Under the pieces are notes generated by a model. It ran no database searches and was not told where the DNA came from. It worked only from the letters and a program-made list of their open reading frames with translations. Shown piece after piece: positions 1,265 through 55,224 of a DNA stretch of 64,000 nt; the stretch's first letter is position 1, and the number at the start of each line of letters is the position of its first letter. The stretch comes from Gemmatimonadaceae bacterium (GTDB lineage: Bacteria; Gemmatimonadota; Gemmatimonadetes; Gemmatimonadales; Gemmatimonadaceae), in assembly GCA_045803545.1 (NCBI GenBank), contig JBJMOW010000004.1:1009189-1073188 (forward strand), in the 5' to 3' direction. Made by a program: the position numbers and the translations under genes.

Positions 1265-1297
1265 AACCCAAACATACAGCCGGGGACGCAGAGCGTG

Positions 1298-1303
1298 TAT
1301 AAT
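1298..1303 (+). promoter_or_regulatory. Perfect TATAAT -10 hexamer 10 nt upstream of the MFS ATG (short-leader or leaderless promoter)
   Basis: gcgtgTATAATcctctgcggcATG. This AT-rich hexamer stands out in GC-rich DNA within the 49-bp divergent region between the VWA and MFS genes. Confidence 0.35.
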
Positions 1304-1313
1304 CCTCTGCGGC

Positions 1314-2606: not shown

Positions 2607-2705
2607 CATCTCGAAGCGCTTGGAGCTGGGCTCGTCGCTAAACAGCTCCCTAAACTGGTAGCTCCCGGCTTTAGTTCTTTGATTGCCGGCTACGTATCGC
2701 GATCT

Positions 2706-3056
2706 CTACGCCGAGATGTGCCCGCGAAACATGAAGAACACCGCCCCAACTATGCACAACGCCGCCCACAGAAAGTCCAGCCGGGGCGGCTGTCGCATGT
2801 AGAAAACGGCGAACGGCACGAATACCGTCAGCGTAATCGCCTCCTGCAGAATCTTTAGCTGCGGGAGCGACAGCTCGGTCGCTCCGATTCGATTCGCCGG
2901 GATCATGAACATGTACTCGAACAACGCGATTCCCCAGCTCAGGATGACAGCGATGTACCACGGCCGGTTGCTGAGATTACGAAGGTGAGCGTACCAGGCG
3001 AACGTCATGAAGATGTTCGAGATGATCAGCAGGCTCGCCGTTCTGAGAAGTAACAT
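2706..3056 (-). CDS. DMT-superfamily small membrane protein (DUF486 family)
   Basis: 116 aa. LLIISNIFMTFAWYAHLR...SWGIALFEYMFMIPANRIG...QLKILQEAITLTVF closely matches the DUF486 pattern as I remember it. Confidence 0.85.
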   Translation of the reverse strand: MLLLRTASLLIISNIFMTFAWYAHLRNLSNRPWYIAVILSWGIALFEYMFMIPANRIGATELSLPQLKILQEAITLTVFVPFAVFYMRQPPRLDFLWAALCIVGAVFFMFRGHISA

Positions 3057-3089
3057 TTTGTTGTCGAGTGAAGTTAGGGCGGCAGCGAT

Positions 3090-3440
3090 CTAGGCTTTTA
3101 TCCAGACGCGAATCGCAATCAAAACCAGAAAAATCGCGAAGCCCCTCTGGAGCTGGGTGCCGGAGATCATTTGGGCCAGACGCGCGCCGAACCACGCGCC
3201 GATGAACAATCCGAGCGCGATCCACAGCGATGCTGCGATGTTGAGGTGTCCGCGGCGCCAGTACTCCCACGCGCCCAACGCGCCGACCGGGAGCAGTAAA
3301 GCACCCAGTGAGGTCCCTGTCGCGGTCTGCGGCTGAAACTTGGCCAGCAGAATCAGCGCCGGCCCGATGACAATCCCGCCGCCAATGCCAAAAATCCCTG
3401 CTATGACTCCGGCAAAGAGGCCGATCGCTATGAATAGCAT
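3090..3440 (-). CDS. TauE/SafE (TSUP) family membrane protein, half-size
   Basis: 116 aa with 4 TM helices. GIFGIGGGIVIGPALILL and GTSLGALLLPVGALGAWEYWRRG are typical TSUP motifs. The protein is only one half-repeat long and no second half lies adjacent. Confidence 0.7.
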   Translation of the reverse strand: MLFIAIGLFAGVIAGIFGIGGGIVIGPALILLAKFQPQTATGTSLGALLLPVGALGAWEYWRRGHLNIAASLWIALGLFIGAWFGARLAQMISGTQLQRGFAIFLVLIAIRVWIKA

Positions 3441-3472
3441 ACGGTTTTAACTCGCGTTGATTGTGAGCCGCA

Positions 3473-4771
3473 TCAGGATGGAATTCCTTTCTTCGCCGCT
3501 TCCAGCACTTTGTCCGCGAACAGATCGATCTCATCGAGCGTCGTGTAGACGTTGGGGGTAATCCGAATTCCCTTGAACTCCGCGTGTACGATCGGTGTGT
3601 TGACGATGCGATGCTGATTGAACAGCCACTGCCCGAGCTTGATGTTGTCGATGCCGTCGACCTGGAAGAGCGCGATAGCGCCTGACTGCCGGTTGTCGAG
3701 CGGTGTCAGCACAGTTATCCGCGGGCTCTCGGCGACGAGCCGCTTCGCCCAGCGATCACGCAGGTAGCGGAGCCGGGCAACCTTGCGCTCGATCCCGATG
3801 CCGCGGTGGAATGCGAGTGCAGCTGAGATCGCGTTGTGATTGGCAGCTGGATGAGTTCCGATTTCTTCGTACTTCCTGATGTCGTTGTCCTGTTTCACGT
3901 CGGCGGCCATCAGCGGCCAGAGATTCTTCTGCTTGTTCTTCCGCACATAGAGGAAGCCCGTGCCAACTGGCGCGAGCAGCCACTTGTGGAGGCTCGTTCC
4001 GTAATAGTCGCAGTTGAGATCGTCGCGCTTGAACGGGAAATGGGCAAACGCATGCGCGCCATCGACGAACACTTCGATACCGCGTGGCCGCGCGAAGTCT
4101 ACTAGCTGCCGAACGGGCATTATCTGCCCAGTAAGGTTGGTGATGTGGGTGACTTCGATCACCCTGGTCTTCGGTGTCACTGCCGCCTTGAACTGATCGA
4201 CCAGGTATTCGTCCGACGGCGGCGGCACCTTGAAAGAGACCTGCCTGACTACGATTCCTTCGCGCCGAGCTCGCTGGTCCCACGCCGTCAGCATGCGCGG
4301 GTAGTTCTGGTTGGTAACGACTACTTCATCGCCGCGCTTGAGATCGAGACCCATGATCATGATCTCGTTTGCCTCCGACGCGTTGCGCGTGATTGCCATC
4401 TCCTCCGGATCGCACCCGAACTCGCTTGCCAGATCGCGGCGAACACTCTCGACGCGCGGCTCGAGCACGCGCCACATGTGCTCGACGGGCAGCTCGTTCG
4501 AGAATCTCAGATCGCGGATCATCGCCTCGAGCACGTGACTGGGTGTCGGGCTGCAGCCGCCGTTGTTGAGATTGATCATTGTACGATCGGCGTCGAACGC
4601 CCGCTGGATCTCCGACCAGTACGATTCATCGTCGGCGACTGCGTTCGGCGACCGTCCTGCGCCGATAGCACCCGCGCGTATGAGGGACTTGATCGCGCCC
4701 TCGCGGAAAATCGGCTGCGCCGTCAGACTGGCGGCAGCCATCCCCGCCAGAAACTCCCGTCGTGTCGTCAT
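3473..4771 (-). CDS. Class V aminotransferase-fold PLP enzyme with twin-arginine (Tat) signal
   Basis: 432 aa. The N-terminus MTTRREFLAGMAAASLTA is Tat-like. The PLP-lysine context is YYGTSLHKWLLAP. Overall the protein is isopenicillin-N-epimerase/cysteine-desulfurase-like. Confidence 0.85.
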   Translation of the reverse strand: MTTRREFLAGMAAASLTAQPIFREGAIKSLIRAGAIGAGRSPNAVADDESYWSEIQRAFDADRTMINLNNGGCSPTPSHVLEAMIRDLRFSNELPVEHMWRVLEPRVESVRRDLASEFGCDPEEMAITRNASEANEIMIMGLDLKRGDEVVVTNQNYPRMLTAWDQRARREGIVVRQVSFKVPPPSDEYLVDQFKAAVTPKTRVIEVTHITNLTGQIMPVRQLVDFARPRGIEVFVDGAHAFAHFPFKRDDLNCDYYGTSLHKWLLAPVGTGFLYVRKNKQKNLWPLMAADVKQDNDIRKYEEIGTHPAANHNAISAALAFHRGIGIERKVARLRYLRDRWAKRLVAESPRITVLTPLDNRQSGAIALFQVDGIDNIKLGQWLFNQHRIVNTPIVHAEFKGIRITPNVYTTLDEIDLFADKVLEAAKKGIPS

Positions 4772-4787
4772 GGGTGAGCCTCACCGC

Positions 4788-4820
4788 AGAAAAAAGACGG
4801 TCATCGTGTGATGACCGTCT
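4788..4820 (-). terminator. Rho-independent terminator downstream of the 4854..6002 gene
   Basis: Perfect 10-bp stem AGACGGTCAT/ATGACCGTCT (4795-4804 / 4811-4820) with a 6-nt loop. On the minus strand it is followed by a run of T (plus-strand A run 4789-4795). Confidence 0.75.
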
Positions 4821-4853
4821 TCAATAATACGCCGTGCGGGAAAGCTCGGTGAG

Positions 4854-6002
4854 CTACTGATACTGTATATAGAGAGGCTTCGGGTTCAGCATCAGTACTT
4901 CCGCTGGTGTCAGCAGCGGATCGCCCTTCTTCGTGTCGTTGTGATAAAAGAGCTTGAACCCGGTGTACTCGACGGGCTCGGCTTCGACATACGCGCGATA
5001 CGAATCGTACTTGAGCCATGGCTGTCCCCAGCCATCCATGTTGATGATCACCTGCACCCGTGGATCGAGCTTTATCGCCTTCGAGTCACTGAGCATGCGT
5101 CGCGTGAATCGATGCACTATGAGAATCTTCGGGGGCAGGTTGTACTGCTTGACGAGTCCCGACAGCAGGTTGATCGCGAAGTTGACGTCGCTCGCGGTCA
5201 TGGTGCCGATCTTTGTACCGGGCTTACTTCCGTCCTTCATCGAGAACTCGGGATCGATCGCGAGCATCACGTCAGGACGCTGCAGAAATGGAACGAGCCG
5301 AGGCAATTCTTCCTGCACAGTGCTCTGTCCGACTTGTACATCCAGGAACAGGATTGCGTGCTTTTTCTGCGCCCAACCGTAGACCATGTTGATCAGGCTG
5401 TCGGTCATGCGCAGGCGATACTTGCCGTCCCTGCCGGGTGCTCCCTGCGCCACGACGGCGATTAGGTGCAGCGCCGGCTGCACTGGATGCGACGGATCCG
5501 CCCTGGTCCACGCCGCGATTTCCTTGTCGAAGCGCGCCAGCATTTGGTCGGGTGGCAGCTCGCCGAGGATACCCATCTTTTTAGAAAGCGGATTTCCGTA
5601 GTAGGCGACGATTCTCTTTTGCGGGAGGATCGCGCCAGGTAGCGGTCGCGGCGCGGTCGTCACCGGCCAATCCTTGTTTGCCAATCCGGCTTTGACTGCG
5701 GCGACGAGAGCGAGGCTGTCCTTTTTCGTGCGCCCTTTGATCGTTGGCACGGTGATCGGCGGATCCTTGGCTGCGGAATCTTTGCCGACCCCCTTCACGG
5801 TGCTCGATGCACTTGGGCTCGTTGTCGCGCTCGCCACAATTGCCGGCGTCGGCTGTGCAGCGAGCGCGGTCGGCGGGCTTTCTGGGGAAATCGTCTGGCC
5901 TGTCGGCGACGGAGTTGCGTCCTTGCTCGCCGCGCAGGCGAACGAGGCGATGACCGCTGCTGGAAGGATCGAGAAATATCTATTGAACAATGTTGAGCTC
6001 AT
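4854..6002 (-). CDS. Secreted protein or lipoprotein of unknown function
   Basis: 382 aa. It has a hydrophobic N-terminus with Cys (AVIASFACAAS), a low-complexity Ala/Pro/Thr linker, and then a roughly 270-aa globular domain. No motif I can name with confidence. Confidence 0.6.
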   Translation of the reverse strand: MSSTLFNRYFSILPAAVIASFACAASKDATPSPTGQTISPESPPTALAAQPTPAIVASATTSPSASSTVKGVGKDSAAKDPPITVPTIKGRTKKDSLALVAAVKAGLANKDWPVTTAPRPLPGAILPQKRIVAYYGNPLSKKMGILGELPPDQMLARFDKEIAAWTRADPSHPVQPALHLIAVVAQGAPGRDGKYRLRMTDSLINMVYGWAQKKHAILFLDVQVGQSTVQEELPRLVPFLQRPDVMLAIDPEFSMKDGSKPGTKIGTMTASDVNFAINLLSGLVKQYNLPPKILIVHRFTRRMLSDSKAIKLDPRVQVIINMDGWGQPWLKYDSYRAYVEAEPVEYTGFKLFYHNDTKKGDPLLTPAEVLMLNPKPLYIQYQ

Positions 6003-6062: not shown

Positions 6063-6141
6063 GATGGCGGGATGAGGGATGGGGATGAGAGATGGGGTAG
6101 GAGCGATCCGTTTGTCGTGCATCCCCCATCCCGTATCCCGG
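6063..6141. repeat. G-rich heptamer-type array (GGGATGA variant) with a C-rich inverted partner
   Basis: gatggcGGGATGAGGGATGGGGATGAGAGATGGGGtagg (6063-6103) faces gCATCCCCCATCCCGTATCCCgg (6119-6141). This is hairpin potential; the G tracts also fit a G-quadruplex pattern. Confidence 0.6.
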
Positions 6142-13225: not shown

Positions 13226-14596
13226 ATGTTTATCTGCCTCTGGACTCCCGCTGCTTTTCCTGCTCTCCCGCTCTTCGCTGAGGAGGGAGTCGTCCAGGAG
13301 AGCGAGCTGCTCAATGAGCTGGTTCCGGAGCTCCTCAACGTCGCACCGCGCGTCACGATCGGCTCGAGAGGAGTTGTGTGGGCAGATGCCCGCGGACTAG
13401 ATGCCGAGCTCCTCGCCAACGATCTTCTCGATGTCTTCCATCGACATGTTCCATCCTGCCTCCCGCCTCCCGCCTCCCGCCTCCCGCTTCCCGCGAGAGC
13501 GGCGATCTCGCTCGTACCAATCACCGCGGAAGTGGCAGCACTGCATGGCAACGGTGGGCTAGTCAGGATCCCGGTCGGCACCGAGCGGGAATTTCTGGCG
13601 CCGTTTCCGATCGGAGTGCTCGAAGCATCGCCGTTTCTGGCGTCGCTGCTCGATGGAATCGGAGTCGAGCGCTGTGCCGATCTGGCGAAGCTCGATCTGG
13701 AATCGATCGAGGTCCGGTTCGGCGCCGAAGGCGCCAATCTCTGGAGATTGGCGAGAGCCGACGACACGCGTCGCATCTTCAAGACGGTGCCGCGTGCGCT
13801 GCCGACTGCTTCGCTCGACTGGCTGGATTACACTCTGCGCGACGCCGAGCGTCTCGTCTTCATCATTAACTCGCTCGTCGGCAACATCACCACCGAGCTC
13901 AAGTCGCGCGGGCAATGTGCGCGTGAGATGACGTTGGTATTCTCGCTGGCAAACCGTGAGACCCTCGAGCAGCTGGTGCGCCCGGCGCGGTCCACGGCGA
14001 GCCACAAAGCGTGGATGAGATTGATGCGCTCGCACCTGGAGCGACTCTCTCTGCCCGACGGTGTCGTCGGCATTACCGTTCGCGTCGAGTCGGTAACCGG
14101 TGAGGTCGAGAAACAGGGCGACATCTTCGATCGCGGCTTCGGCACCGCGCGCGCGGCCGAGGAGACCATCGCGCAGCTCCTCGATGACCAGGGCGCGGTG
14201 GTCGTCACGCCACGAAATTCACAGCATCCGTTGATCGACCGCCGCACCGAGTGGGTCACTCAGGAGCCATCCCAGGCATCGGCGCGCATTCAGCTGCGGG
14301 AGCGAGTGGTGAAAGCGACGGCGGCCCCGCGTCTGACGCTGCAATTATTGCCAGAACCCAAGAGAGTGGCGGTAACGACACGCCGTCGTCGCGATCACGA
14401 CATGCCGATCCAGTATCGCGACAAAGAGTGGGCAACTCTCGTCTCCGCCGCCGGTCCCGATCGTGTGTCAGGTGGCCAATGGACCGAGCCCTACGCGCGC
14501 GAATATTTCCGCTGCGTCACTGATGACGGAATGATGGTCTGGCTATTCCGCGATGCGCGCGATAGCGAGTGGTATTTGCACGGCTGGTGGGATTAA
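13226..14596 (+). CDS. imuB: ImuB-like (Y-family polymerase-like) mutasome protein
   Basis: The N-terminus MFICLWTPAAFPALPL resembles the canonical ImuB start (CLW.P.WPL). About 456 aa. It occurs in context with imuA and dnaE2. The start is taken at ATG 13226; the TTG at 13202 is also possible. Confidence 0.7.
   Translation: MFICLWTPAAFPALPLFAEEGVVQESELLNELVPELLNVAPRVTIGSRGVVWADARGLDAELLANDLLDVFHRHVPSCLPPPASRLPLPARAAISLVPITAEVAALHGNGGLVRIPVGTEREFLAPFPIGVLEASPFLASLLDGIGVERCADLAKLDLESIEVRFGAEGANLWRLARADDTRRIFKTVPRALPTASLDWLDYTLRDAERLVFIINSLVGNITTELKSRGQCAREMTLVFSLANRETLEQLVRPARSTASHKAWMRLMRSHLERLSLPDGVVGITVRVESVTGEVEKQGDIFDRGFGTARAAEETIAQLLDDQGAVVVTPRNSQHPLIDRRTEWVTQEPSQASARIQLRERVVKATAAPRLTLQLLPEPKRVAVTTRRRRDHDMPIQYRDKEWATLVSAAGPDRVSGGQWTEPYAREYFRCVTDDGMMVWLFRDARDSEWYLHGWWD
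13461..13495. repeat. Five tandem heptamers (TCCCGCC x3, TCCCGCT, TCCCGCG) inside the imuB coding sequence
   Basis: Read directly from the sequence. The tract encodes CLPPPASRLPLPA. The complementary strand reads CGGGAAGCGGGAGGCGGGAGGCGGGAGG, the same family as the intergenic arrays. Confidence 0.9.
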
Positions 14597-22941: not shown

Positions 22942-22972
22942 CCCTCCGCCTTCCCGCCTCCCGCGTCCCTCC
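22941..22972. repeat. Short C-rich heptamer-family tract directly after the dnaE2 stop
   Basis: GCCCTCCGCCTTCCCGCCTCCCGCGTCCCTCC. The complement has four GGG tracts. Confidence 0.6.
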
Positions 22973-22985
22973 TTATCCTTGGCTG

Positions 22986-30389: not shown

Positions 30390-31013
30390 TTACAACCGAA
30401 ACCTCATTCTCGCCGCGTCGACGATCAGATCCGCGGCACCCTGAATTCCAAGGCGTTCCGTATTTACGCTAAGATCGAAGTTCTCGTGAGCGCGACGTTC
30501 GCGCTCCCAGTGCAGCCGAACCCACTGATCACGCTGCTTGTTGGTTTCATCAACCAGGCGTGCCGCTTCCTCAGCGCCGACTGCTTCACGCTGCATCGTG
30601 CGCGCGATCAAGCTTTTTCGCGGTGCATAGCAGAACACGTGGAGCGTATCTTCGCGCGCGGCGAGCATCTCCTGGGTGCCGCGACCAACGACAACCAGCG
30701 GACCGGCGGCGATCGCTTCTTCGACGACGTGCCGCGTCACTTCGATCAGCTGCTCGTCGCTGGGCCGCTTGGCCGCGGCCATCGGCGAGGCCCACTCCTG
30801 TGATCCCATCGCCATAGCCGCGGTGAGTCTCTCTACGAGAGACGGAACCCGTTCTTCGCGCGCCTGAACCTCGGCGGCGCTCAATCCCATGCGCGCGGCA
30901 ACTGCATCGACTACAGCGTTGTCGAGTAACGACCAGCCAAGAGCTTTTGCGACGAGCGCGGCTACCTCAGAGCCTCCCGAACCATAGAGGCGCGAGACAG
31001 TGAGAACCGACAG
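30390..31013 (-). CDS. Cytidylate-kinase-like family protein (probable CTG start)
   Basis: The P-loop-like signature VLTVSRLYGSGGSEVAALVAKALGW lies upstream of the first canonical start (ATG 30890). The only start-like codon after the in-frame TGA (31019-31017) is CTG 31013-31011, preceded by AGGA with 7-nt spacing. Confidence 0.6.
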   Translation of the reverse strand: MSVLTVSRLYGSGGSEVAALVAKALGWSLLDNAVVDAVAARMGLSAAEVQAREERVPSLVERLTAAMAMGSQEWASPMAAAKRPSDEQLIEVTRHVVEEAIAAGPLVVVGRGTQEMLAAREDTLHVFCYAPRKSLIARTMQREAVGAEEAARLVDETNKQRDQWVRLHWERERRAHENFDLSVNTERLGIQGAADLIVDAARMRFRL

Positions 31014-37899: not shown

Positions 37900-38874
37900 C
37901 TATTCGTCCTCCTCCGGCGACGCAACCACCAGCCGCAGCGCGTCTCGATCGATACGGTATTCGAGAGGTGTCTTCATGCGCTTAAGCTCTCCGTCCAGCC
38001 CGACCGTCGTTTGTGGCCGGTTCAAATCGATCTGGCATTTGTCGACCAGAAAATTCTCGAACTCCGGTAGCTTCGCCGCCTCCTTCGTTCCGCGGGCAAG
38101 CGCAGCCATTCCCAGCGTGAACAGCCTGGCCTTCTTGCGGCCGCGAATAATCATCACGTGCAAGCCGCGTCTGCCATTTGCGACTCGATTTCCGAAGGTG
38201 GGCATTTTGAGCTCGCGCTCGCCAACGCCAATGAATACGAGAGATGTGCGAAACGTTCTCGCTTTGCCTTCAACCTCGAATGTGACGCTGAATGTGCGGA
38301 GGTCTTTGAGCGTCATCACACCGGCGAAAACGCTGGCAATCGTATATCCAAACCGCTTCTCGAGCCTTTCTCGATCGCGAACGAACGTCACATAGGCGCC
38401 AATGGAGCTGGTGTTGAGGAAAACACAGTCGTTGACGTAGCCAATGTCGGCTCCGACGACTTCGCCGGCACCGGCGGCGATTGCTGCCTTACCGAGGTCG
38501 GTCGGAATGTTGTGATCCTTGGCGAAGTGATTGAGGGTTCCGCCCGGCAGGATGGCGAGTTGAGTTTCACTCCTGGCGACCAGCGACGCCGCGGTAGCGA
38601 TGGTTCCGTCACCCCCGGCAACCAGGATGCGTTCGATGCCGCCGGCGATCGCTGTCTTGAGCTTTGATTCCATGTCGCCGGGCTCGACGACCTCTAAATC
38701 GTAGCCGACTGTCTCCAGCGCCTCACGCGCCTTATCCGCGTTGCCGCACTTGGCGTTGAGGAAAGCCTTTAGAGCGCGAGGCGGGCGGCGAGAGGCGGGA
38801 GGCGGTGTAGTGGATAGAGACACGAGAGATGCTCCATACAAGAAAGACGCCGACCCAATTTGAGTCGGCGTCAT
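37900..38874 (-). CDS. Diacylglycerol-kinase-family lipid kinase (YegS/BmrU-like)
   Basis: Carries the ILVAGGDGTI motif and LAILPGGTLNHFA. The start is uncertain because the first roughly 35 codons cover one arm of a heptamer inverted repeat. Confidence 0.8.
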   Translation of the reverse strand: MTPTQIGSASFLYGASLVSLSTTPPPASRRPPRALKAFLNAKCGNADKAREALETVGYDLEVVEPGDMESKLKTAIAGGIERILVAGGDGTIATAASLVARSETQLAILPGGTLNHFAKDHNIPTDLGKAAIAAGAGEVVGADIGYVNDCVFLNTSSIGAYVTFVRDRERLEKRFGYTIASVFAGVMTLKDLRTFSVTFEVEGKARTFRTSLVFIGVGERELKMPTFGNRVANGRRGLHVMIIRGRKKARLFTLGMAALARGTKEAAKLPEFENFLVDKCQIDLNRPQTTVGLDGELKRMKTPLEYRIDRDALRLVVASPEEDE

Positions 38875-38919
38875 CTTACTGCTGTTTCGCTTTGCGCCTC
38901 TCGCCTCCCGCCTCCCTCC
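38774..38919. repeat. Inverted heptamer-family arms bracketing the start of the lipid-kinase gene
   Basis: gcgcGAGGCGGGCGGCGAGAGGCGGGAGGCGgtg (38774-38807) faces gCGCCTCTCGCCTCCCGCCTCCctcc (38894-38919). Confidence 0.7.
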
Positions 38920-38926
38920 TACCGCT

Positions 38927-40401: not shown

Positions 40402-41211
40402 TTACCGCTTGGCGATGCCGTCCCAGCGAGTCGGAACGAGAGTGTCGTTCGGCACGGTCTCGACTTCACGCGCGACCAGGATCGCGCTCCCCCAATGACG
40501 GCCGAAGCGGGCGGCTTCTCTGCAGTCCGGATTCCAGATGTCGAGCGTAGCGCCGAGCACATTGCCGCCGGTGTCGTCGACCAGGTAACGACCGAGGTAC
40601 TCGTCGCCGAGGAAGACTTCGACGTAACGCGCGAGCGGGAAAATGCGCGGGTCGGCGGCGACGATGCCGTGACGGGTCTGCCGTCCGCGGCGAGTTTCAC
40701 CCTGTACGCAGTACTGGGTGAGCGACACGGGAATGGTGATTCCGTCCTGGGCCCGTGCGAATTTCGAAGGAATCAGCGGCAGGATTCCCTTCTTCATCTT
40801 GATCGCTTCGTGCGCGGTGGCCCGCACGACATTGCGCGGAATCGACTCGACGCCTCTCGCGATCGGCTTAGTGACTGCAGCGGTCGCGCGTGCAACTTTC
40901 ACGGTCGCCGACGGGACTGCCTTGGCGAGAGTCGCCACGGCGCGCATCGGGGCGGTGAGCATGCCCGCTTCGCTGTGCACGCCTTCGATGTCCGCCAGGA
41001 TCTGCGGCTCGAGAGGCGGCAAGGAGGCCGGAGTAATCTCGCTGGCGGCTTCTACCGGCGAGAGCGACGGCAAGGCGATGGCGCCGGTTGCCACCAGGGC
41101 GACCGCGAGGGTGACTGCCGAGATGGTGCGAGCGATGTCCGCGCGCGACCGCGCCGGGCTACCAGAGGCCGGCACTTCATAGGTACCGCGAGAGACATTG
41201 CTGTTTTTCAT
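40402..41211 (-). CDS. 3D-domain (MltA/RlpA-like double-psi beta-barrel) cell-wall protein
   Basis: The C-terminal segment RHGIVAADPRIFPLARYVEVFLGDEYLGRYLVDDTGGNVLGATLDIW matches the 3D domain pattern. An N-terminal membrane anchor is present. Confidence 0.75.
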   Translation of the reverse strand: MKNSNVSRGTYEVPASGSPARSRADIARTISAVTLAVALVATGAIALPSLSPVEAASEITPASLPPLEPQILADIEGVHSEAGMLTAPMRAVATLAKAVPSATVKVARATAAVTKPIARGVESIPRNVVRATAHEAIKMKKGILPLIPSKFARAQDGITIPVSLTQYCVQGETRRGRQTRHGIVAADPRIFPLARYVEVFLGDEYLGRYLVDDTGGNVLGATLDIWNPDCREAARFGRHWGSAILVAREVETVPNDTLVPTRWDGIAKR

Positions 41212-42326
41212 GCAAGCACCTCCCGTAGCTGATCGTTACTTACCGAAACCGTCCACCCTGATTCCTCTCCCGCCATGCTGCCGACGCGTCTAGGTAAGGC
41301 AAACCTTGTCTTACCGCCCCGCGCTTTCTTATCCGACCCCATCGCGGCGATAACCGCATCCGACTCACAGGAGTCGGGCAAAGTCGTCGGGAGGCTGAAG
41401 GCCCGGAGCGCGCCAACAATGGCATCCGCGGTCCCCGGTTCGGCGACTCCCAGCCTTTCGGCGAGTCGCGCCTCCAACGCCATCCCTACCGCGATCGCTT
41501 CTCCGTGAAGGAGAGTGTAGCCACTAACGAGCTCGATCGCGTGGCCGATGGTATGGCCAAAATTCAGAGTTTTTCGAAGGCCTTCCTCCCGTTCATCACG
41601 TGAGACAACTGCGGCCTTGATCTCAATACTATGGACGATGGCGGCGAGCATGCTGTCACTCGTCGGACCGTCCTTCGCCAGCAGCTTTTTGGCGCCGCCG
41701 ACGACCGTACGAAGATAAGCCTCGTCGGCGATTACGCCATGCTTGATAACCTCTGCAAATCCCGCACGCATCTCGTTAAGTGGAAGCGTGGCAAGGACTT
41801 GCGGGTCCACAATTATTGCGGCTGGGTGGTGAAAAACGCCGACCAGGTTCTTGCCAGCGGGGGTGTCGACAGCCGTTTTCCCCCCGATCGCTGAATCCAC
41901 CATCGCCATCAGGCTGGTGGGGACCTGAACGATGGGTATACCGCGCATAAAAGTGGCTGCGAGGAACCCAGCGAGGTCGCCCACGACGCCTCCGCCAAGT
42001 GCGATGACGGCGGAATCGCGGCCGAATCCGCGGACCAGCAATTGGTCGGTCAGGCTGCCCCAGGTATCCCGGGTCTTGTTCGACTCGCCGGGGGCGATCG
42101 TCAGTACGTCGACTTTGTCCCGGTTGAACGCTTTTTTGACCTGGGAGGCGTAGATGGGGCCGACGTTCGCGTCGGTGACGATCGCGTAGCGATGGGCCGG
42201 CGCGACCTCCTTTGCGATTGCCGCAACGTGGGAGATCAAACCGGGCGCGACCCTGATCGACGACGCACCGAGCGCGATCCGCTGATGGGCGGGTAGCGCG
42301 GGCGTAGGAGGTGTTTTGGCTACCAG
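41208..42326 (-). CDS. aroB: 3-dehydroquinate synthase (possible CTG start)
   Basis: Core motif GGGVVGDLAGFLAATFMRGIPIVQVPTSLMAMVDSAIGGKT. The first canonical start (TTG 42239) removes the conserved N-terminal strands (QRIALGASSIRVAPGL). The frame is open up to a TGA, with CTG at 42326. Confidence 0.8.
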   Translation of the reverse strand: MVAKTPPTPALPAHQRIALGASSIRVAPGLISHVAAIAKEVAPAHRYAIVTDANVGPIYASQVKKAFNRDKVDVLTIAPGESNKTRDTWGSLTDQLLVRGFGRDSAVIALGGGVVGDLAGFLAATFMRGIPIVQVPTSLMAMVDSAIGGKTAVDTPAGKNLVGVFHHPAAIIVDPQVLATLPLNEMRAGFAEVIKHGVIADEAYLRTVVGGAKKLLAKDGPTSDSMLAAIVHSIEIKAAVVSRDEREEGLRKTLNFGHTIGHAIELVSGYTLLHGEAIAVGMALEARLAERLGVAEPGTADAIVGALRAFSLPTTLPDSCESDAVIAAMGSDKKARGGKTRFALPRRVGSMAGEESGWTVSVSNDQLREVLA

Positions 42327-44835: not shown

Positions 44836-44944
44836 GAATCTCGTTAGGGTGTTCTGGCCTTACGGTTTTGAGCTTAATCGCGTTTCGCTGGAACAGGGAC
44901 GACCAGCTGAATCCGAAGTATTAGACAGCGCATTATAGATTCTA

Positions 44945-45000
44945 GCGGGAAGCGGGAAGCGGGAAGCGGGATGGAGATTGAGGATTAGAGGATTGGGGAT
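44945..45000. repeat. GGGAAGC x3.5 array (canonical G3N4 quadruplex motif) followed by GAGGATT-type heptamers
   Basis: GCGGGAAGCGGGAAGCGGGAAGCGGG (44945-44970) is followed by atGGAGATTGAGGATTAGAGGATTGGGGAT. Confidence 0.85.
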
Positions 45001-45020
45001 GACGCGAGAGGACTGGCGAT

Positions 45021-46454
45021 CTGACTAAGAAACCAACGCATTACCACCTGATCGGGATCGCTGGTACGGCGATGGCGTCGCTGGCGGGGCTGCTGAAAGC
45101 CGCCGGACATAAAGTCACCGGGTCCGACGAGAACGTTTACCCGCCCATGTCAACCAACCTGGAGCGCATGGGGATCACCTACGCTCAGGGTTACAAGCCG
45201 GAGAACCTTTCACCGGCGCCTGACATCGTCGTGGTCGGCAATGTCATCTCGCGCGGGAATCCGGAGCTGGAAGAGGTGCTGATCCGGAAGCTGCGTTACA
45301 CGTCAGCGGCTGCCACGATCAAAGAAGAATTCATATGGGGTCATCACTGCCTGGCGGTGGCGGGGACGCATGGCAAAACGACCACGACTTCGTTGCTGGC
45401 GTGGCTGCTGGAGTCGGCCGGACTCAACCCGAGCTTTCTGATTGGCGGTGTAGCTGAGAACTTCGGCACATCCTATCGACTCACGGGCTCGCGTTACTTC
45501 GTTATTGAAGCCGACGAGTACGACACGGCGTACTTCGACAAGGGTCCGAAGATGTGGCACTACCTGCCGGACACCGCGATCGTCAACAACATCGAATACG
45601 ATCACGCCGACATCTATCGCGACGAGGAGGCGTACAAGTTCGCCTTCGCGCGCTTCATCAATCTCGTTCCGAAGAACGGCGTGGTGATCGCTGGCTGGGA
45701 CTCGCCAATCGTGCGAGAGCTTGCTCCCAAATCGCCGGCGCCTGTGCAGTCTTTTGCGTATGGGGATGACACAGTGACGTCGCAGGATGCGCAAGCACAT
45801 TGGCACGCGCGCGATGTCGAGTTCGACGAGAGCGGCACCCGGTTCCGCGCTTTCAAGTCGACGGAAGAGTGGGGAAGAGTCGAGACACCTCTCGCGGGCG
45901 CGTTCAACGTGCGCAACGCGCTGGCAGTCATAGCGGCCGCGGAATCAGTGAAAGCCGATCGCGATGGTGTGCGTCAGGGATTCAAGACCTTCGCGAGTGT
46001 GAAGCGACGGATGGAAGTCCGTGGTGAAGTTCGCGGCGTGACAGTGATCGACGATTTCGCGCATCATCCGACAGCGATCCGGGAGACGATCGACGCGGTG
46101 CGACAGAAGTACAAAGGGCGGCGAATCGTTGCCATCTACGAGCCGAGGAGCTACACCGCGCAGCGGCGGGAATTTCAGGACGACTATGCGCGCGCCTTCG
46201 CTGGTGCGGAGGAGATTATTTTCGCGTCGTTGTATCGGCCGGATCGGTACACGAAAGAGACTGCGCTGGATCTCGGAAAGCTCGTTCGGGATCTGAGCAC
46301 TAACGGCAAAACCGCAAAAGAGCTCAAGGATGCTGACACGATCGTGCGTGATCTTGCTCCGCGCGCACGTGAGCGTGATGTGGTGTTGATCATGTCGAAT
46401 GGCGGATTTGGCGGGATCCACCAGAAACTTCTCGACGCGCTCGGAGCTCGCTGA
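45021..46454 (+). CDS. mpl: UDP-N-acetylmuramate:L-Ala-gamma-D-Glu-meso-DAP ligase (murein peptide ligase), probable CTG start
   Basis: HYHLIGIAGTAMASLA...GSDENVYPPMS, GTHGKTTTTS and EADEYDTAYFDK parallel E. coli Mpl as I recall it. The first ATG (45072) lies inside the N-terminal Rossmann GxxGxxM motif. Upstream, the frame has only CTG 45021, preceded by GAGAGGA. Confidence 0.85.
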   Translation: MTKKPTHYHLIGIAGTAMASLAGLLKAAGHKVTGSDENVYPPMSTNLERMGITYAQGYKPENLSPAPDIVVVGNVISRGNPELEEVLIRKLRYTSAAATIKEEFIWGHHCLAVAGTHGKTTTTSLLAWLLESAGLNPSFLIGGVAENFGTSYRLTGSRYFVIEADEYDTAYFDKGPKMWHYLPDTAIVNNIEYDHADIYRDEEAYKFAFARFINLVPKNGVVIAGWDSPIVRELAPKSPAPVQSFAYGDDTVTSQDAQAHWHARDVEFDESGTRFRAFKSTEEWGRVETPLAGAFNVRNALAVIAAAESVKADRDGVRQGFKTFASVKRRMEVRGEVRGVTVIDDFAHHPTAIRETIDAVRQKYKGRRIVAIYEPRSYTAQRREFQDDYARAFAGAEEIIFASLYRPDRYTKETALDLGKLVRDLSTNGKTAKELKDADTIVRDLAPRARERDVVLIMSNGGFGGIHQKLLDALGAR

Positions 46455-46457
46455 CGG

Positions 46458-47048
46458 CTACTCTGGGCTGATCTTTCGGCGCGGCACAATCGGGGTAAGG
46501 CGGGCTGATCCCGTTTTTGCGACGATTCCGAGTTTAAGAATGGTGTTCCAGTTCCGGCCGGTTCCCCGTCCCAGTCTCTTCTCGAGAACCGAGTGGGTGA
46601 GCTTCGATCGGCCCTGGCCGTCCGGGAAATAAATGTAGGCGTGCTTGCCCTTGGCGCGTACGACTTCGCGGCCGCGGATGTCGCCTTGCAGCGCGACGAT
46701 GTCGGCCACGTCCGGCTCGCTCTTCAGGAACATCACTACGAGATGCCCCGAATCCTTCTCGGCTTCTTTGCGGAAAGGATTCTGGCGGATGATGGCCTTC
46801 CACTCATCCGGCGTCCGCACGATGAAATCGGCTTCGAGCGACAACCGATCGAGGGCTTCGCTCTCGAGAAAACGCTCGAGCTCGGAGCCAGTTCTAACCT
46901 TGCTCTCGAAGACGAGGTTACCGCTCTGAAGCAGCGACCGGACGTTCTCCATGCCGAGCGCCGCCAGGAAATTTCGAAGATCGGTCATCCCGACCTGACG
47001 ATGGCCGCCGACGTTGATGCCGCGGACGAGAGCGATATGGGTTGTCAG
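46458..47048 (-). CDS. DUF1697 family protein, probable CTG start
   Basis: The family signature IALVRGINVGGHRQV is encoded upstream of the first ATG (46988). CTG 47048 lies 2 codons after an in-frame TAG and gives (M)TTHIALVRGINVGG, a typical DUF1697 N-terminus. Confidence 0.8.
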   Translation of the reverse strand: MTTHIALVRGINVGGHRQVGMTDLRNFLAALGMENVRSLLQSGNLVFESKVRTGSELERFLESEALDRLSLEADFIVRTPDEWKAIIRQNPFRKEAEKDSGHLVVMFLKSEPDVADIVALQGDIRGREVVRAKGKHAYIYFPDGQGRSKLTHSVLEKRLGRGTGRNWNTILKLGIVAKTGSARLTPIVPRRKISPE

Positions 47049-47098: not shown

Positions 47099-47297
47099 CC
47101 GGCGGGAGGCGGGAAGCGGGAAGCGGGAAGCGGGAAGCGAGAAGGAGGGCGCGAGAGGCGGGAGGCGAGAGGCGGGAGGAGGATGCATTCGCCTCGCCCT
47201 GTCTTCACCGCGCTTCGCTTCCCGCTTCCCGTTTCCCGCCCGCTTCCCGCTTCCCGCCTCCCGCTTCCCGCTTCCCGCTTCCCGCTTCCCGCTTCCC
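47099..47297. repeat. Large inverted pair of heptamer arrays (about 12 units per arm) around a 28-nt spacer
   Basis: The left arm (47099-47183) is GGCGGGAGGC(GGGAAGC)x4...GAGAGGCGGGAGGCGAGAGGCGGGAGG. The right arm (47211-47297) is its C-rich complement, (CTTCCCG)n. The right arm supplies the last roughly 30 codons (GKREAGS repeats) of ORF 47205..48524. Confidence 0.9.
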
Positions 47298-48524
47298 ACT
47301 CCTATATGGGCGCTCCCACTCGCGCAGATGATCCAGCAGGTAGTCGAGCGAGAAGACGTGCCGTGAGTTGTCGGCCTTGCGGCGGAAGATCACGCGTGAC
47401 CAGCCGCGCATCCCCGTCGGGGTGTACCACTCGCCGTTCATGTGCAGCTTGTCGCCATTGATGGCGCGTATCAGTACGCGTTCGTACTGCGACCGCGGAA
47501 GCACGCGTTCGGGGAAAAGGTTGTCCCACGTGCAGAGGCGTCCGACGTCCTCGTACCCCGCCGGCCGATCGTCGAGATCCAGCAGTGATGGAGCGCGCCC
47601 TTTCATCACCGAGCCAATCAGCCTCAGGGTAAACGGGTCGGAGAAGCGGCGGATGTACGGCCAGAAGTGTTTCGTGATCCGACCGGCCATCTCGCGCAAC
47701 GTCATGAAACGGCCGTCGGTCGTTGGCCATTTGTCGGTGTCAATGTCGCTGATGAACGGGTTTTCGGGATAGCAATCGAAACGGGCCAGCCATCCTTTGC
47801 GCGTCGTGTGCGGCATTGGACGGAATCCACGAATCACCGGAATGTCGGTGTCGTCAAGCGCGCTGATTTCGTAACTTGGCCACCGCATCACTTCCCGCAC
47901 AATCCCGACGATCAGGGTCGCTGTTGCAATCATGAGCGGTGCGTCGGGAGTGAAGTCGGCAGTGACCTCGATGCGATCGCCGCGCGGCCGCACCCCGATT
48001 CCCGTCGAACGCCGGTTCGCCGCGAGCAGCATCACCGGAATCGGCAGGATGTGCGCGAGCAGATAAGCCAACTGCTCGACGGTGCGCGTCGTCCCCTGCT
48101 CGTACTTCGGCAGCTCGAACGAGATGTTGTAGTGGGTGCTGAAGCCGGCGAGCTGGACGTCGGTGTCGTGTGCCTGCTCCCAGGCATCGAGCTCCTGACG
48201 CACGAACAGAATCGCTTCCCATAGCGAGCGCCCGGCACGCGCGGCGCAGCCACGCTCGATCTCGATCACTGGCGTCGCCACTTCGATCACGCCCGTATCG
48301 AAATACACGGCACCGCCAGTTGGCAGGTGATACGACCGTCCTTTGCGGTGCATCATCTTCTCGCGGATGATCCTGCGCGGGCTGCCGAAGAGATCCTCAG
48401 GCTTCACCTGCACGCCGTCCTGGATCACCGCGAATTCGGCTTCCATGCCGATTGCGGCGAGCTGGATACGCTCGTGCGTGGATGATTTGTTCTCGGGACC
48501 TTTCTTTTTCTTCAGCTCGGTCAT
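47205..48524 (-). CDS. Distant PafA/Dop / glutamine-synthetase-fold carboxylate-amine ligase-like protein
   Basis: 439 aa. GMEAEFAV parallels the GIETEFG strand of PafA. GGAVYFDTGVIEVATPV parallels GARLYLDVGSHPEYATAE. GFSTHYNISF parallels YGCHENYLI. The order and spacing of the three motifs are as in PafA (about 450 aa), compared from memory. The C-terminal tail is encoded by the heptamer repeat. Confidence 0.5.
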   Translation of the reverse strand: MTELKKKKGPENKSSTHERIQLAAIGMEAEFAVIQDGVQVKPEDLFGSPRRIIREKMMHRKGRSYHLPTGGAVYFDTGVIEVATPVIEIERGCAARAGRSLWEAILFVRQELDAWEQAHDTDVQLAGFSTHYNISFELPKYEQGTTRTVEQLAYLLAHILPIPVMLLAANRRSTGIGVRPRGDRIEVTADFTPDAPLMIATATLIVGIVREVMRWPSYEISALDDTDIPVIRGFRPMPHTTRKGWLARFDCYPENPFISDIDTDKWPTTDGRFMTLREMAGRITKHFWPYIRRFSDPFTLRLIGSVMKGRAPSLLDLDDRPAGYEDVGRLCTWDNLFPERVLPRSQYERVLIRAINGDKLHMNGEWYTPTGMRGWSRVIFRRKADNSRHVFSLDYLLDHLREWERPYRSGKREAGSGKREAGGGKREAGGKREAGSEAR

Positions 48525-48581
48525 TCTGCCTTCTTACCCAAAGTGCTTCACTCTTTCTGACTCTTTTTCGGGACGATTCCG

Positions 48582-55189: not shown

Positions 55190-55224
55190 GCCGGGCTTCC
55201 GCCTCTCGCCTCTCGCCCTCCGCG
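55190..55224. repeat. Short C-rich heptamer-family tract between tamA and tamB
   Basis: GCCGGGCTTCCGCCTCTCGCCTCTCGCCCTCCGCG, which contains complements of GAGAGGC units. Confidence 0.6.

What the first reader, a model, noticed from the sequence alone, without database searches (positions are those of the whole stretch)
45000..45074. mpl must initiate at a non-canonical codon (CTG 45021)
The first ATG (45072) is the Met inside the Mur-ligase N-terminal Rossmann motif (HYHLIGIAGTAMASLA; E. coli Mpl, as I recall it, starts MRIHILGICGTFMGG). The true start must therefore be upstream. Between the in-frame TGA (45000-45002) and 45072 the codons are CGC GAG AGG ACT GGC GAT CTG ACT AAG AAA CCA ACG CAT TAC CAC CTG ATC GGG ATC GCT GGT ACG GCG. 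None is ATG, GTG or TTG. CTG 45021 is preceded by GAGAGGA with about 8-nt spacing. This parallels the DUF1697, cytidylate-kinase-like and aroB cases in this window and suggests recurrent CUG initiation in this organism.
Basis: partly seen in the sequence, partly recalled or inferred. Interest (0 to 1): 0.65.

Follow-up and report, generated by a model that had tools for sequence, protein, structure and literature searches.

The report
mpl gene starting at CTG
A cell-wall recycling gene (mpl) in a soil Gemmatimonadota genome has lost its in-frame ATG and most likely starts translation at a CTG codon, as do three other genes nearby; this rare but known bacterial start type makes gene finders truncate such genes.

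Summary
After TGA 45000-45002 the mpl frame has no ATG/GTG/TTG until ATG 45072, which lies inside the Rossmann motif. Profiles place the conserved domain start at H 45039.

It aligns with the family's start (ATG GCG CGA...) and has a good SD, but is +1 out of frame. It now heads a 9-codon uORF ending at TAA 45026-28.

The gene is not a pseudogene (dN/dS 0.045 against another start-less allele, dS 1.2). It is not an assembly artefact either: a separate run's contig matches 44893-45064 exactly.

In the window's clade, every allele without an ATG at that codon keeps CTG six codons before HYH, and five of six have GAGGA 8-9 nt upstream. The closest relatives have ATG at that codon. uORF frames differ between alleles, which argues against programmed frameshifting.

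The parallels hold. Of about 48 ORFs, only mpl, DUF1697, cmk-like and aroB have a domain start upstream of any canonical start, and each has an in-frame CTG there. DUF1697 is 13 CTG + 1 TTG in 14 orthologs; cmk-like is TTG versus CTG in a 98% relative.

Verdict: CTG 45021 is the probable start. The evidence is comparative only.

The parts
44930..44942 (+). GCATTATAGATTC, a promoter-like motif conserved upstream of mpl across the family. In relatives L082/L090 the ATG start lies only about 6-7 nt after its extended form ...TAGATTCCAGTA.
   Evidence: Conserved in nearly all Gemmatimonadota mpl loci. No sigma-70 consensus match, so the promoter role is inferred.
44944..44971 (+). (AGCGGGA)x4 heptamer tandem array in the mpl 5' leader. 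It reads GGGAAGC GGGAAGC GGGAAGC GGGA, i.e. a G3N4 x4 G-quadruplex-type motif.
   Evidence: TRF, 100% matches. Word depth is 650-5900 in soil metagenomes, so it is a very common repeat. Relatives L083-86 carry other heptamer arrays at the same place.
44988..44992 (+). GAGGA Shine-Dalgarno-like element, 6 nt upstream of ATG 44999.
   Evidence: Sequence. It corresponds to the family's GACGAGG-N4-ATG arrangement.
44999..45028 (+). Relic of the ancestral mpl start, now a 9-codon uORF: ATG ACG CGA GAG GAC TGG CGA TCT GAC TAA (MTREDWRSD*). It is +1 out of frame with mpl. Its stop lies 2 nt past the CTG.
   Evidence: The family consensus is ATG GCG CGA AAC ... with 39 nt from ATG to the HYH codons. 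The window has 40 nt.
45000..45002 (+). In-frame TGA that closes the mpl frame upstream.
45006..45012 (+). GAGAGGA Shine-Dalgarno-like element, 8 nt upstream of CTG 45021.
   Evidence: A GAGGA 8-9 nt upstream of the homologous CTG is also present in L081, L173, L175-178 and L179.
45021..45023 (+). CTG, the proposed initiation codon of mpl.
   Evidence: It is position-homologous to the ATG start of L082/L090/X12. CTG is kept in all six distinct clade alleles that lack an ATG there.
45021..46454 (+). Proposed mpl CDS (477 codons plus TGA): UDP-N-acetylmuramate:L-alanyl-gamma-D-glutamyl-meso-diaminopimelate ligase.
   Evidence: TIGR01081 443 bits. PDB 3hn7/3eag alignments. dN/dS 0.036-0.08.
45051..45053 (+). 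ATC, which a public NCBI annotation of the identical protein (P0127, 467 aa, MGIAGTAM...) used as the start. This is unlikely to be correct because it removes the conserved HYHL beta-strand residues.
45072..45074 (+). First in-frame ATG. It is the Met of the Rossmann GxGGxxM loop and the default (truncated, 460 aa) call of gene finders.
   Evidence: The P0004 cluster has many 460-aa calls.
47046..47048 (-). CTG proposed start of the neighbouring DUF1697 gene (46458-47048).
   Evidence: 13 CTG + 1 TTG in 14 orthologs. There is no canonical start in most, and conservation begins at this codon.
42324..42326 (-). CTG proposed start of aroB (41208-42326). It overlaps the stop of the upstream PduO-type adenosyltransferase gene (CTGGTAG).
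31011..31013 (-). CTG proposed start of the cytidylate-kinase-like gene (30390-31013), 3 nt after the upstream gene's TGA. AGGA lies 7 nt upstream.
   Evidence: 120 orthologs start at this position with M/V/L. L174 is identical except for TTG in place of CTG.

Best explanation
mpl in this Gemmatimonadota genome is a functional gene. Its translation most likely begins at the near-cognate codon CTG 45021, decoded as fMet by initiator tRNA and positioned by the Shine-Dalgarno-like GAGAGGA 8 nt upstream. The resulting protein would start (M)TKKPTHYHLIGIAGTAM.

This is a derived state. The family's ancestral start, ATG 44999 with its own SD, is still present. A net 1-nt length change has put it +1 out of frame, so it now opens a 9-codon uORF that terminates at TAA 45026-28, 2 nt past the CTG. 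Ribosomes finishing that uORF may also re-initiate at the CTG (coupling), but direct SD-guided CUG initiation is sufficient.

Shown:
- There is no canonical in-frame start.
- The sequence is independently reproduced.
- The gene is under purifying selection.
- The CTG+SD arrangement is conserved across alleles.
- Relatives have ATG at the homologous codon.

Inferred:
- The CTG is actually used.
- It yields Met.
- Expression is low but adequate for a non-essential recycling ligase.
For:: no ATG/GTG/TTG between TGA 45000 and ATG 45072.

the Mpl profile and PDB alignments begin at residue 13 (45039).

110+ of 120 orthologs start MARNPDQRTKKPLHYH, with 39 nt from ATG to HYH. The window has 40 nt, and ATG ACG CGA aligns to ATG GCG CGA.

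a 172-nt contig from run X1 is identical over 44893-45064, with no gaps.

dN/dS is 0.045 for window vs L081 (dS 1.19), the same as between alleles with canonical starts.

L082/L090 and a variant in run X12 have ATG at exactly the CTG codon.

- The window, L081, L173, L175-178, L179 and L083-86 all keep CTG six codons before HYH.
- GAGGA lies 8-9 nt upstream in five of these six alleles; L083-86 have GAGGG 4 nt upstream.
- The Thr codon after the CTG varies synonymously (ACT/ACA/ACC), whereas the sequence upstream of the CTG is unalignable.
- L179 has lost the ATG altogether (AAG).

only 5 of 159 mpl loci are start-less. The two outside this clade (Blastocatellia L011, L012) also have SD + CTG where their relatives have TTG or ATG.

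the same lineage has CTG at start positions of DUF1697, aroB and cmk-like.

Literature: CUG initiates at about 1-2% of AUG in E. coli (bioRxiv 10.1101/063800). Conserved CTG starts have been proven by proteomics in Deinococcus (PMC2830850).
Against: - There is no direct evidence: no N-terminal peptide, ribosome profiling or transcript 5' end. Metatranscriptome contigs do not cover the leader.
- CTG is the commonest Leu codon here, so its conservation in six related alleles is weak on its own. In L083-86, L173 and L175-178 an in-frame ATG or GTG further upstream could be the real start, with the CTG an ordinary Leu.
- In E. coli CUG is about 50-100 times weaker than AUG.
- A well-formed SD+ATG uORF that overlaps the SD and the CTG could just as well occlude initiation at the CTG.
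- Run X1 may come from the same study as the window's source assembly.
Confidence: 0.65

Rival explanations
1. Programmed +1 ribosomal frameshifting. Translation starts at ATG 44999 and shifts into the mpl frame before or at TAA 45026, as in prfB. The product would be MTREDWRSD-KKPTHYH..., with the ancestral length of 13 residues before HYH.
For: ATG 44999 has a good SD and aligns with the family's start. The combined length (13 residues before HYH) equals the family consensus. L081 is also +1 out of frame and shares TCTGACTAA.
Against: - No slippery site: tRNAs on TCT or GAC cannot re-pair in the +1 frame (CTG, ACT).
- The internal SD is 10 nt from the putative shift codon, against 3 nt in prfB.
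- The stop contexts TAA-G and TAA-A are not weak.
- Alleles differ in offset: L173 is +2 with a 3-codon uORF, L179 has no ATG at all, and the L175-178 uORF ends earlier. No single frameshift mechanism is conserved, while the CTG+SD arrangement is.
Confidence: 0.06
2. Sequencing or assembly indel. The true genome has ATG 44999 in frame, so the gene is ordinary.
For: A single extra base accounts for everything. The identical protein sits on a 1.2-Mb contig, which suggests a long-read assembly, and those are prone to indels.
Against: - A k-mer contig from run X1 (depth 3.7) reproduces 44893-45064 with 0 mismatches and 0 gaps.
- There is no homopolymer at the site.
- Independent assemblies L081 and L179 are also start-less with different sequences.
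- The other start-less genes in the window are point states shared with many relatives, not indels.
Confidence: 0.04
3. Initiation at a different codon. Candidates are ATC 45051 (as in the NCBI annotation), ACG 45036, AAG 45027, or ATG 45072. The downstream ones would give an N-terminally shortened protein.
For: NCBI annotates the identical protein from ATC 45051. Gene finders choose ATG 45072. ATH codons are known rare starts, e.g. infC and Deinococcus dnaA (PMC2830850).
Against: - HYHL and TKKP upstream of ATC are conserved at the amino-acid level with synonymous DNA changes, so they are translated.
- The Ile codon is ATC, ATT or ATA in different alleles.
- The Mpl profile and the solved structures include this beta1 strand.
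- No SD precedes ATC or ATG 45072.
- ACG and AAG are far weaker than CUG in E. coli (10.1101/063800).
Confidence: 0.12
4. Recently disabled gene. The frame disruption silenced mpl, a dispensable recycling enzyme, too recently to leave a dN/dS signal.
For: Mpl is non-essential in E. coli (general knowledge). The 5' region of this clade is hypervariable, with repeat arrays and indels.
Against: - Three deeply diverged lineages (window, L081, L179; dS about 1) are all start-less.
- They have intact 471-codon bodies, and dN/dS is 0.045 for window vs L081.
- Independent recent inactivation in each lineage, with retention of CTG and a correctly spaced GAGGA, is unparsimonious.
Confidence: 0.08

Closest known systems
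Conserved CTG/ATC start codons in Deinococcus-Thermus (rpsL CTG, Deide_03051 CTG, dnaA ATC; Baudet et al. 2010, PMC2830850)
   Same: Chromosomal housekeeping genes whose conserved N-terminal fold elements lie upstream of any ATG/GTG/TTG. The CTG is conserved across related genomes, and gene finders mis-call the starts.
   Different: - Those cases have N-terminal proteomic proof; here the evidence is comparative only.
- The phylum (Gemmatimonadota) and the genes differ.
- The density here is higher (4 of about 50 genes in one window).
- For mpl the CTG start is a recent derived state next to a stranded ancestral ATG.
Near-cognate initiation measured in E. coli (Hecht et al., bioRxiv 10.1101/063800) and the CTG start of plasmid RepA (cited in PMC2830850)
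   Same: The mechanism assumed here is the same: initiator tRNA reads CUG at an SD-positioned site and gives Met at low efficiency (about 1-2% of AUG).
   Different: The E. coli figures may not transfer to this phylum. Family-wide retention of CTG in aroB and DUF1697 suggests it is adequate, or better tolerated, here.
Start-codon switching among ATG/GTG/TTG under weak selection (Belinky et al. 2017, PMC5622118)
   Same: The cmk-like gene shows ATG, GTG and TTG at one homologous start position in 120 orthologs. The window's CTG is one transition away from TTG.
   Different: I cite that study only as the closest description of start-codon switching, from its title and abstract. Here the switching extends to CTG.
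prfB-type programmed +1 frameshifting
   Same: A short upstream ORF with SD+ATG is +1 out of frame with the main ORF, and an internal SD-like element is present.
   Different: There is no slippery codon, the SD spacing is wrong, and neither the frame offset nor the ATG is conserved among alleles. It is not a member.
Translational coupling / termination-reinitiation at overlapping stop-start sites (ATGA, TAATG type)
   Same: aroB (CTGGTAG), cmk-like (TGACTCCTG) and mpl (CTGACTAA) all have an upstream ORF's stop within 5 nt of the CTG.
   Different: The restart codon is CTG instead of ATG/GTG. DUF1697 has no upstream ORF or SD, so coupling cannot be the general explanation.

Membership tests
Mpl (TIGR01081, murein tripeptide ligase) | Full-length match to the equivalog profile above the curated cutoff | tested here: met
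   443.2 bits vs cutoff 388.7, profile positions 1-447 of 448. murC scores below its cutoff (325 vs 335).
Mpl (TIGR01081, murein tripeptide ligase) | N-terminal Rossmann beta1 strand plus Gly-rich loop (hhhhGIxGxxM) encoded in frame | tested here: met
   HYHLIGIAGTAM at 45039-45074 aligns to 3hn7/3eag residues and to PF01225 position 1.
Bacterial non-canonical (CUG) start codon | No ATG/GTG/TTG in frame between the upstream stop and the conserved N-terminal domain | tested here: met
   Also true of L081 and L179.
Bacterial non-canonical (CUG) start codon | The gene is functional (purifying selection, intact body) | tested here: met
   dN/dS 0.036-0.045 within the clade, including start-less vs start-less.
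Bacterial non-canonical (CUG) start codon | The candidate codon is position-homologous to canonical starts in orthologs | tested here: met
   ATG at the same codon in L082/L090 and the X12 variant. The analogous TTG/ATG vs CTG pattern occurs in Blastocatellia.
Bacterial non-canonical (CUG) start codon | Shine-Dalgarno element at functional spacing | tested here: met
   GAGAGGA 8 nt upstream. GAGGA lies 8-9 nt upstream in L081, L173, L175-178 and L179.
Bacterial non-canonical (CUG) start codon | The codon is conserved beyond what a Leu codon would show | tested here: inconclusive
   For mpl, 6 of 6 distinct alleles have CTG, but they are related and few. For DUF1697 the feature is met: 14/14 YTG against 49% in 14 internal Leu columns, with a maximum of 12/14.
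Bacterial non-canonical (CUG) start codon | Direct evidence of initiation (N-terminal peptide, initiating-ribosome footprint) | not testable with these tools
   No proteomic or Ribo-seq data exist for this uncultured lineage. RNA contigs do not cover the leader.
prfB-like programmed +1 frameshift | A slippery P-site codon that can re-pair in the +1 frame at a slow stop or hungry codon | tested here: not met
   TCT GAC TAA: neither TCT to CTG nor GAC to ACT can re-pair.
prfB-like programmed +1 frameshift | Conserved frame relationship and shift site among orthologs | tested here: not met
   Offsets are +1 (window, L081) and +2 (L173). L179 has no ATG, and L083-86 and L175-178 have an in-frame ATG.

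The most novel reading that the evidence does not exclude
This soil Gemmatimonadota family, and perhaps other slow-growing soil phyla such as Acidobacteriota, may have relaxed start-codon discrimination. CUG would then serve as a routine fourth start codon for several percent of genes, against 0.05% or less in annotated model genomes. Some such starts would be fixed family-wide (aroB, DUF1697) and others would flip between TTG/ATG and CTG among close relatives (cmk-like, mpl). That would imply lineage-specific properties of IF3, the initiator tRNA or the 30S P site, and systematic N-terminal truncation of such genes in Prodigal- or PGAP-annotated MAGs.
Probability: 0.3. Interest if true: 0.7.

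Novelty: new member of a known kind. Interest (0 to 1): 0.5.

Why it matters

In this window, four of about 50 genes can only be read as complete proteins if CTG initiates. Public annotations of the same mpl protein start it inside the nucleotide-binding fold: 460-aa and 467-aa calls against the 477 aa proposed here.

If the pattern holds genome-wide, three things follow:
- Many proteins from uncultured soil phyla are stored N-terminally truncated in databases, which affects domain detection, signal-peptide prediction and structure modelling.
- The lineage would be a natural system for asking how start-codon stringency evolves.
- The mpl locus shows a concrete route by which a CTG start arises. 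An indel strands the old ATG as a uORF, and a nearby SD+CTG takes over.

Tried and rejected
**Pseudogene.** Rejected by dN/dS of 0.045 between two start-less alleles.

**Assembly or sequencing error.** Rejected by the identical X1 contig and by independent start-less assemblies. The raw-read run X22 from the same study gave only one read, on the repeat, so it was uninformative.

**TGA recoding or a start further upstream.** The frame upstream has a second TGA and a TAG and no ATG.

**Programmed +1 frameshift.** There is no slippery site, and offsets are inconsistent among alleles.

**Phase variation by the heptamer arrays.** The arrays lie in the leader upstream of ATG 44999. The extra base lies in non-repetitive sequence between 44999 and 45021.

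**Riboswitch or leader RNA.** No Rfam hit at E<=1. The leader does not fold better than shuffles (z = +0.67).

**Sigma-70 promoter or terminator scan.** Nothing found. A TAKAWTTYCAGTA motif search in the window found no match.

**Special initiator tRNA in the window.** The window contains no tRNA genes.

**'Every gene here is odd'.** Rejected. The GlcE-like gene, which has no ATG for 418 codons, simply uses a GTGA overlap start. About 44 other ORFs have canonical starts upstream of their domains.

**Gene-finder calls as evidence.** P0106/L088 and P0121/L175-178 were called from the internal Met although an in-frame ATG exists upstream. A '460 aa' call alone is therefore not evidence of a start-less allele.

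**aroB in the 3-kb flanks.** Not reached. Solved with 10-kb flanks.

**Literature.** No paper was found on start codons in Gemmatimonadota.
Full report
**1. Observation**

- TGA lies at 45000-45002 and is followed by 23 codons with no ATG, GTG or TTG.
- The first ATG (45072) is the Met of the Rossmann loop in HYHLIGIAGTAM.
- GAGAGGA (45006-45012) lies 8 nt before CTG 45021.

The ORF is Mpl. TIGR01081 scores 443 bits against a cutoff of 388.7, and murC is below its own cutoff. Position 1 of both TIGR01081 and PF01225 aligns to residue 13 of the stop-to-stop frame (H at 45039). The solved Mpl structures 3hn7 and 3eag align from the same point. The start must therefore lie at or upstream of about 45036.

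As a base rate, only 5 of 159 mpl loci from many phyla lack a canonical start upstream of this motif.

**2.

The organism is a soil Gemmatimonadota. More than 110 of the 120 closest Mpl proteins begin MARNPDQRTKKPLHYH, with 13 residues before HYH.

At the DNA level the family has a conserved GCATTATAGATTCC motif. It is followed by GACGAGG-N4-ATG GCG CGA AAC..., with 39 nt from the ATG to the HYH codons.

The window has an ATG at 44999, overlapping the TGA 'stop' (A-TGA).
- It is preceded by GAGGA at 6-nt spacing.
- It reads ATG ACG CGA, which plainly makes it the ancestral start.
- It lies 40 nt from HYH, so it is +1 out of frame.
- It now opens a 9-codon ORF (MTREDWRSD*) that stops at TAA 45026-28, inside CTG ACT AAG.

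**3. Not an error, not a pseudogene**

A 172-nt contig from public run X1 (depth 3.7) lies on 44893-45064 with no mismatch and no gap. No other run holds the exact 5' region, and raw reads from a sister run were uninformative.

Independent assemblies show the same state with different sequences.
- L081 (ENA) has an ATG 16 nt before the same CTG and no in-frame canonical start.
- L179 (ENA) has the ATG mutated to AAG and an in-frame TAA two codons before the CTG.

dN/dS between the window and L081 is 0.045 at dS 1.19. This equals the values between alleles with canonical starts (0.036-0.046).

**4. Which codon starts translation**

Within the window's clade (IGIAGTAM) the 5' end is hypervariable, but one arrangement recurs.

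| Allele | SD-like element and spacer before CTG | Sequence from the CTG |
|---|---|---|
| window | GAGAGGA-8nt | CTG ACT AAG AAA CCA |
| L081 | GAGGA-9nt | CTG ACT AAA AAA CCA |
| L173 | GAGGA-9nt | CTG ACA AAA AAA CCA |
| L179 | GAGGA-9nt | CTG ACC AAC AAA CCG |
| L175-178 | GAGGA-8nt | CTG ACT AAA AAA CCA |
| L083-86 | GAGGG-4nt | CTG ACA AAG |

- Upstream of the CTG the sequences are unalignable, and the encoded residues differ (RERTGD / GWTA / TRGYDA / DA).
- From the CTG on, L-T-K/N-K-P is kept with synonymous changes.
- The closest relatives (L082/L090, 94-95% aa identity, and a variant in run X12) have ATG at exactly this codon. It lies 6-7 nt after the promoter-like motif, which looks like a leaderless mRNA.
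- Some alleles also have an in-frame ATG or GTG further upstream (L083-86 at -11; L173 and L175-178 at -19). Only the window, L081 and L179 are strictly start-less.

uORF geometry varies among alleles: +1, +1, +2, an in-frame uORF that terminates, or none at all. No slippery codon exists at TCT GAC TAA. A prfB-like frameshift is therefore not supported.

ATC 45051 is used by a public NCBI annotation of the identical protein (P0127, 467 aa). It would delete the conserved HYHL residues, and the codon is not conserved (ATC/ATT/ATA).

**5. The parallel cases**

I scanned about 48 stop-to-stop ORFs of the window with Pfam. Only mpl, DUF1697, cmk-like and aroB have a domain that starts upstream of the first canonical start. 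Each has an in-frame CTG at the expected place.

*DUF1697 (CTG 47046-48, minus strand)*
- In 14 non-redundant orthologs the start column is 13 CTG + 1 TTG.
- Most have no canonical start after the nearby upstream stop, and conservation begins at that codon.
- As a control, 14 internal, fully conserved Leu columns use CTG+TTG in only 97 of 196 cells. None exceeds 12/14.

*cmk-like (CTG 31011-13, minus strand)*
- 120 orthologs all start at this position, with M, V or L as the first residue.
- L174 (98% identical) matches the window over 105 nt except for one upstream base and TTG in place of CTG.

*aroB (CTG 42324-26, minus strand)*
- The window, L170 and L172 read CTG GTA with no canonical start. 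L171 reads CTG GTG.
- The CTG overlaps the upstream gene's stop (CTGGTAG), so its conservation is confounded by that overlap.

Across 18 syntenic genes in five genomes, all other starts are ATG or GTG.

Outside the phylum, Blastocatellia mpl loci L011 and L012 have a strong SD followed by CTG, where relatives have TTG (L016) or ATG (L029).

**6. Mechanism**

The best reading has two parts.
- A net 1-nt change stranded the ancestral ATG as a uORF.
- Translation of Mpl now starts at CTG 45021 through SD-guided near-cognate pairing of the initiator tRNA.

This gives low expression, which is plausibly enough for a recycling ligase. In E. coli, CUG works at about 1-2% of AUG (bioRxiv 10.1101/063800).

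Termination of the uORF 2 nt past the CTG could add reinitiation, or it could interfere with initiation there. This cannot be decided from sequence. The leader has no significant fold and no Rfam match.

**7. Comparison with known cases**

Conserved CTG starts have been proven by N-terminal proteomics in Deinococcus (rpsL and Deide_03051), alongside ATC for dnaA and the CTG start of plasmid RepA (PMC2830850). The kind is therefore known.

What is new here:
- the phylum;
- the density (4 of about 50 genes, against a combined 0.05% or less for non-ATG/GTG/TTG starts in annotated model genomes, 10.1101/063800);
- a visible evolutionary route at mpl.

I found no paper on start codons in Gemmatimonadota.

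**8. Verdict**

This is a new member of a known kind and of moderate interest.

The broader reading, relaxed start-codon selection in this lineage, is not excluded. It would be considerably more interesting if true.

Noticed in passing
window 46458-47048 (-), start codon 47046-47048: The DUF1697 gene has a family-wide conserved CTG start: 13 CTG + 1 TTG in 14 orthologs. There is no SD, no canonical alternative, and conservation begins exactly at the codon. Gene finders call it from the internal conserved Met (173-177 aa).
   Followed up: yes
window 30390-31013 (-), start codon 31011-31013; L174:796: The start of the cytidylate-kinase-like gene is CTG here but TTG in a 98%-identical relative, and ATG/GTG/TTG in 120 orthologs at the same position. 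It sits 3 nt after the upstream gene's TGA, with AGGA 7 nt upstream.
   Followed up: yes
window 41208-42326 (-), start codon 42324-42326: aroB has no canonical start in the window, L170 or L172. Its in-frame CTG overlaps the stop of the upstream PduO-type adenosyltransferase gene (CTGGTAG), and GGTGA lies 6 nt upstream. Gene calls in relatives range from 277 to 360 aa.
   Followed up: yes
window 6069-6097, 13454-13494, 22946-22973, 38774-38805, 38895-38925, 44944-45000, 47101-47179, 47216-47297, 55200-55217: There are many G-rich heptanucleotide tandem arrays (GGCGGGA / GCGGGAA / GCGGGAG / GGGATGA and their complements), mostly in intergenic leaders. The (GCGGGAA)n words have depth 650-5900 in soil metagenomes, so this is an abundant repeat class. 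Several arrays fit G-quadruplex motifs. Copy number and unit differ between close relatives.
   Followed up: partly
window 47205-47297 (-): The 3' end of the conserved hypothetical gene 47205-48533 runs into a (CGCTTCC)x12 array. This gives a repetitive C-terminal tail, ...SGKREAGSGKREAGGGKREAGGKREAGSEAR. Relatives show similar repeat-encoded stretches (LPASRFPLPAS) near the DAGK gene.
   Followed up: no
L082:172, L090:1501 and a run X12 contig (variant of window 44942-45039): The closest relatives of the window's mpl have the ATG only 6-7 nt after the conserved TAGATTCCAGTA motif. This suggests a leaderless mpl mRNA in those strains. Three quite different 5' architectures therefore coexist within about 5% protein divergence.
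   Followed up: partly
window 45051-45053; proteins P0127, P0129: NCBI annotations of this mpl protein (P0127, identical to the window's) and of a cluster relative (P0129) start at the Ile codon corresponding to ATC 45051 (MGIAGTAM..., 467 and 466 aa). The pipeline thus already resorted to a non-canonical start, but inside the Rossmann beta1 strand. JGI and ENA calls use Met 45072 (460 aa).
   Followed up: yes
L011:~3001 and L012:~2998 (Blastocatellia MAGs): Two Acidobacteriota mpl genes also lack any canonical start. They have a strong SD followed by CTG at the position where relatives have TTG (L016) or ATG (L029).
   Followed up: partly
L088/L089:1929 and L175-178:~511: Gene finders called mpl from the internal Met although an in-frame ATG with the full MARNPDQRTKKPL N-terminus (L088) or an upstream in-frame ATG (L175-178) is present. 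Truncated calls in this family are therefore partly software artefacts.
   Followed up: yes
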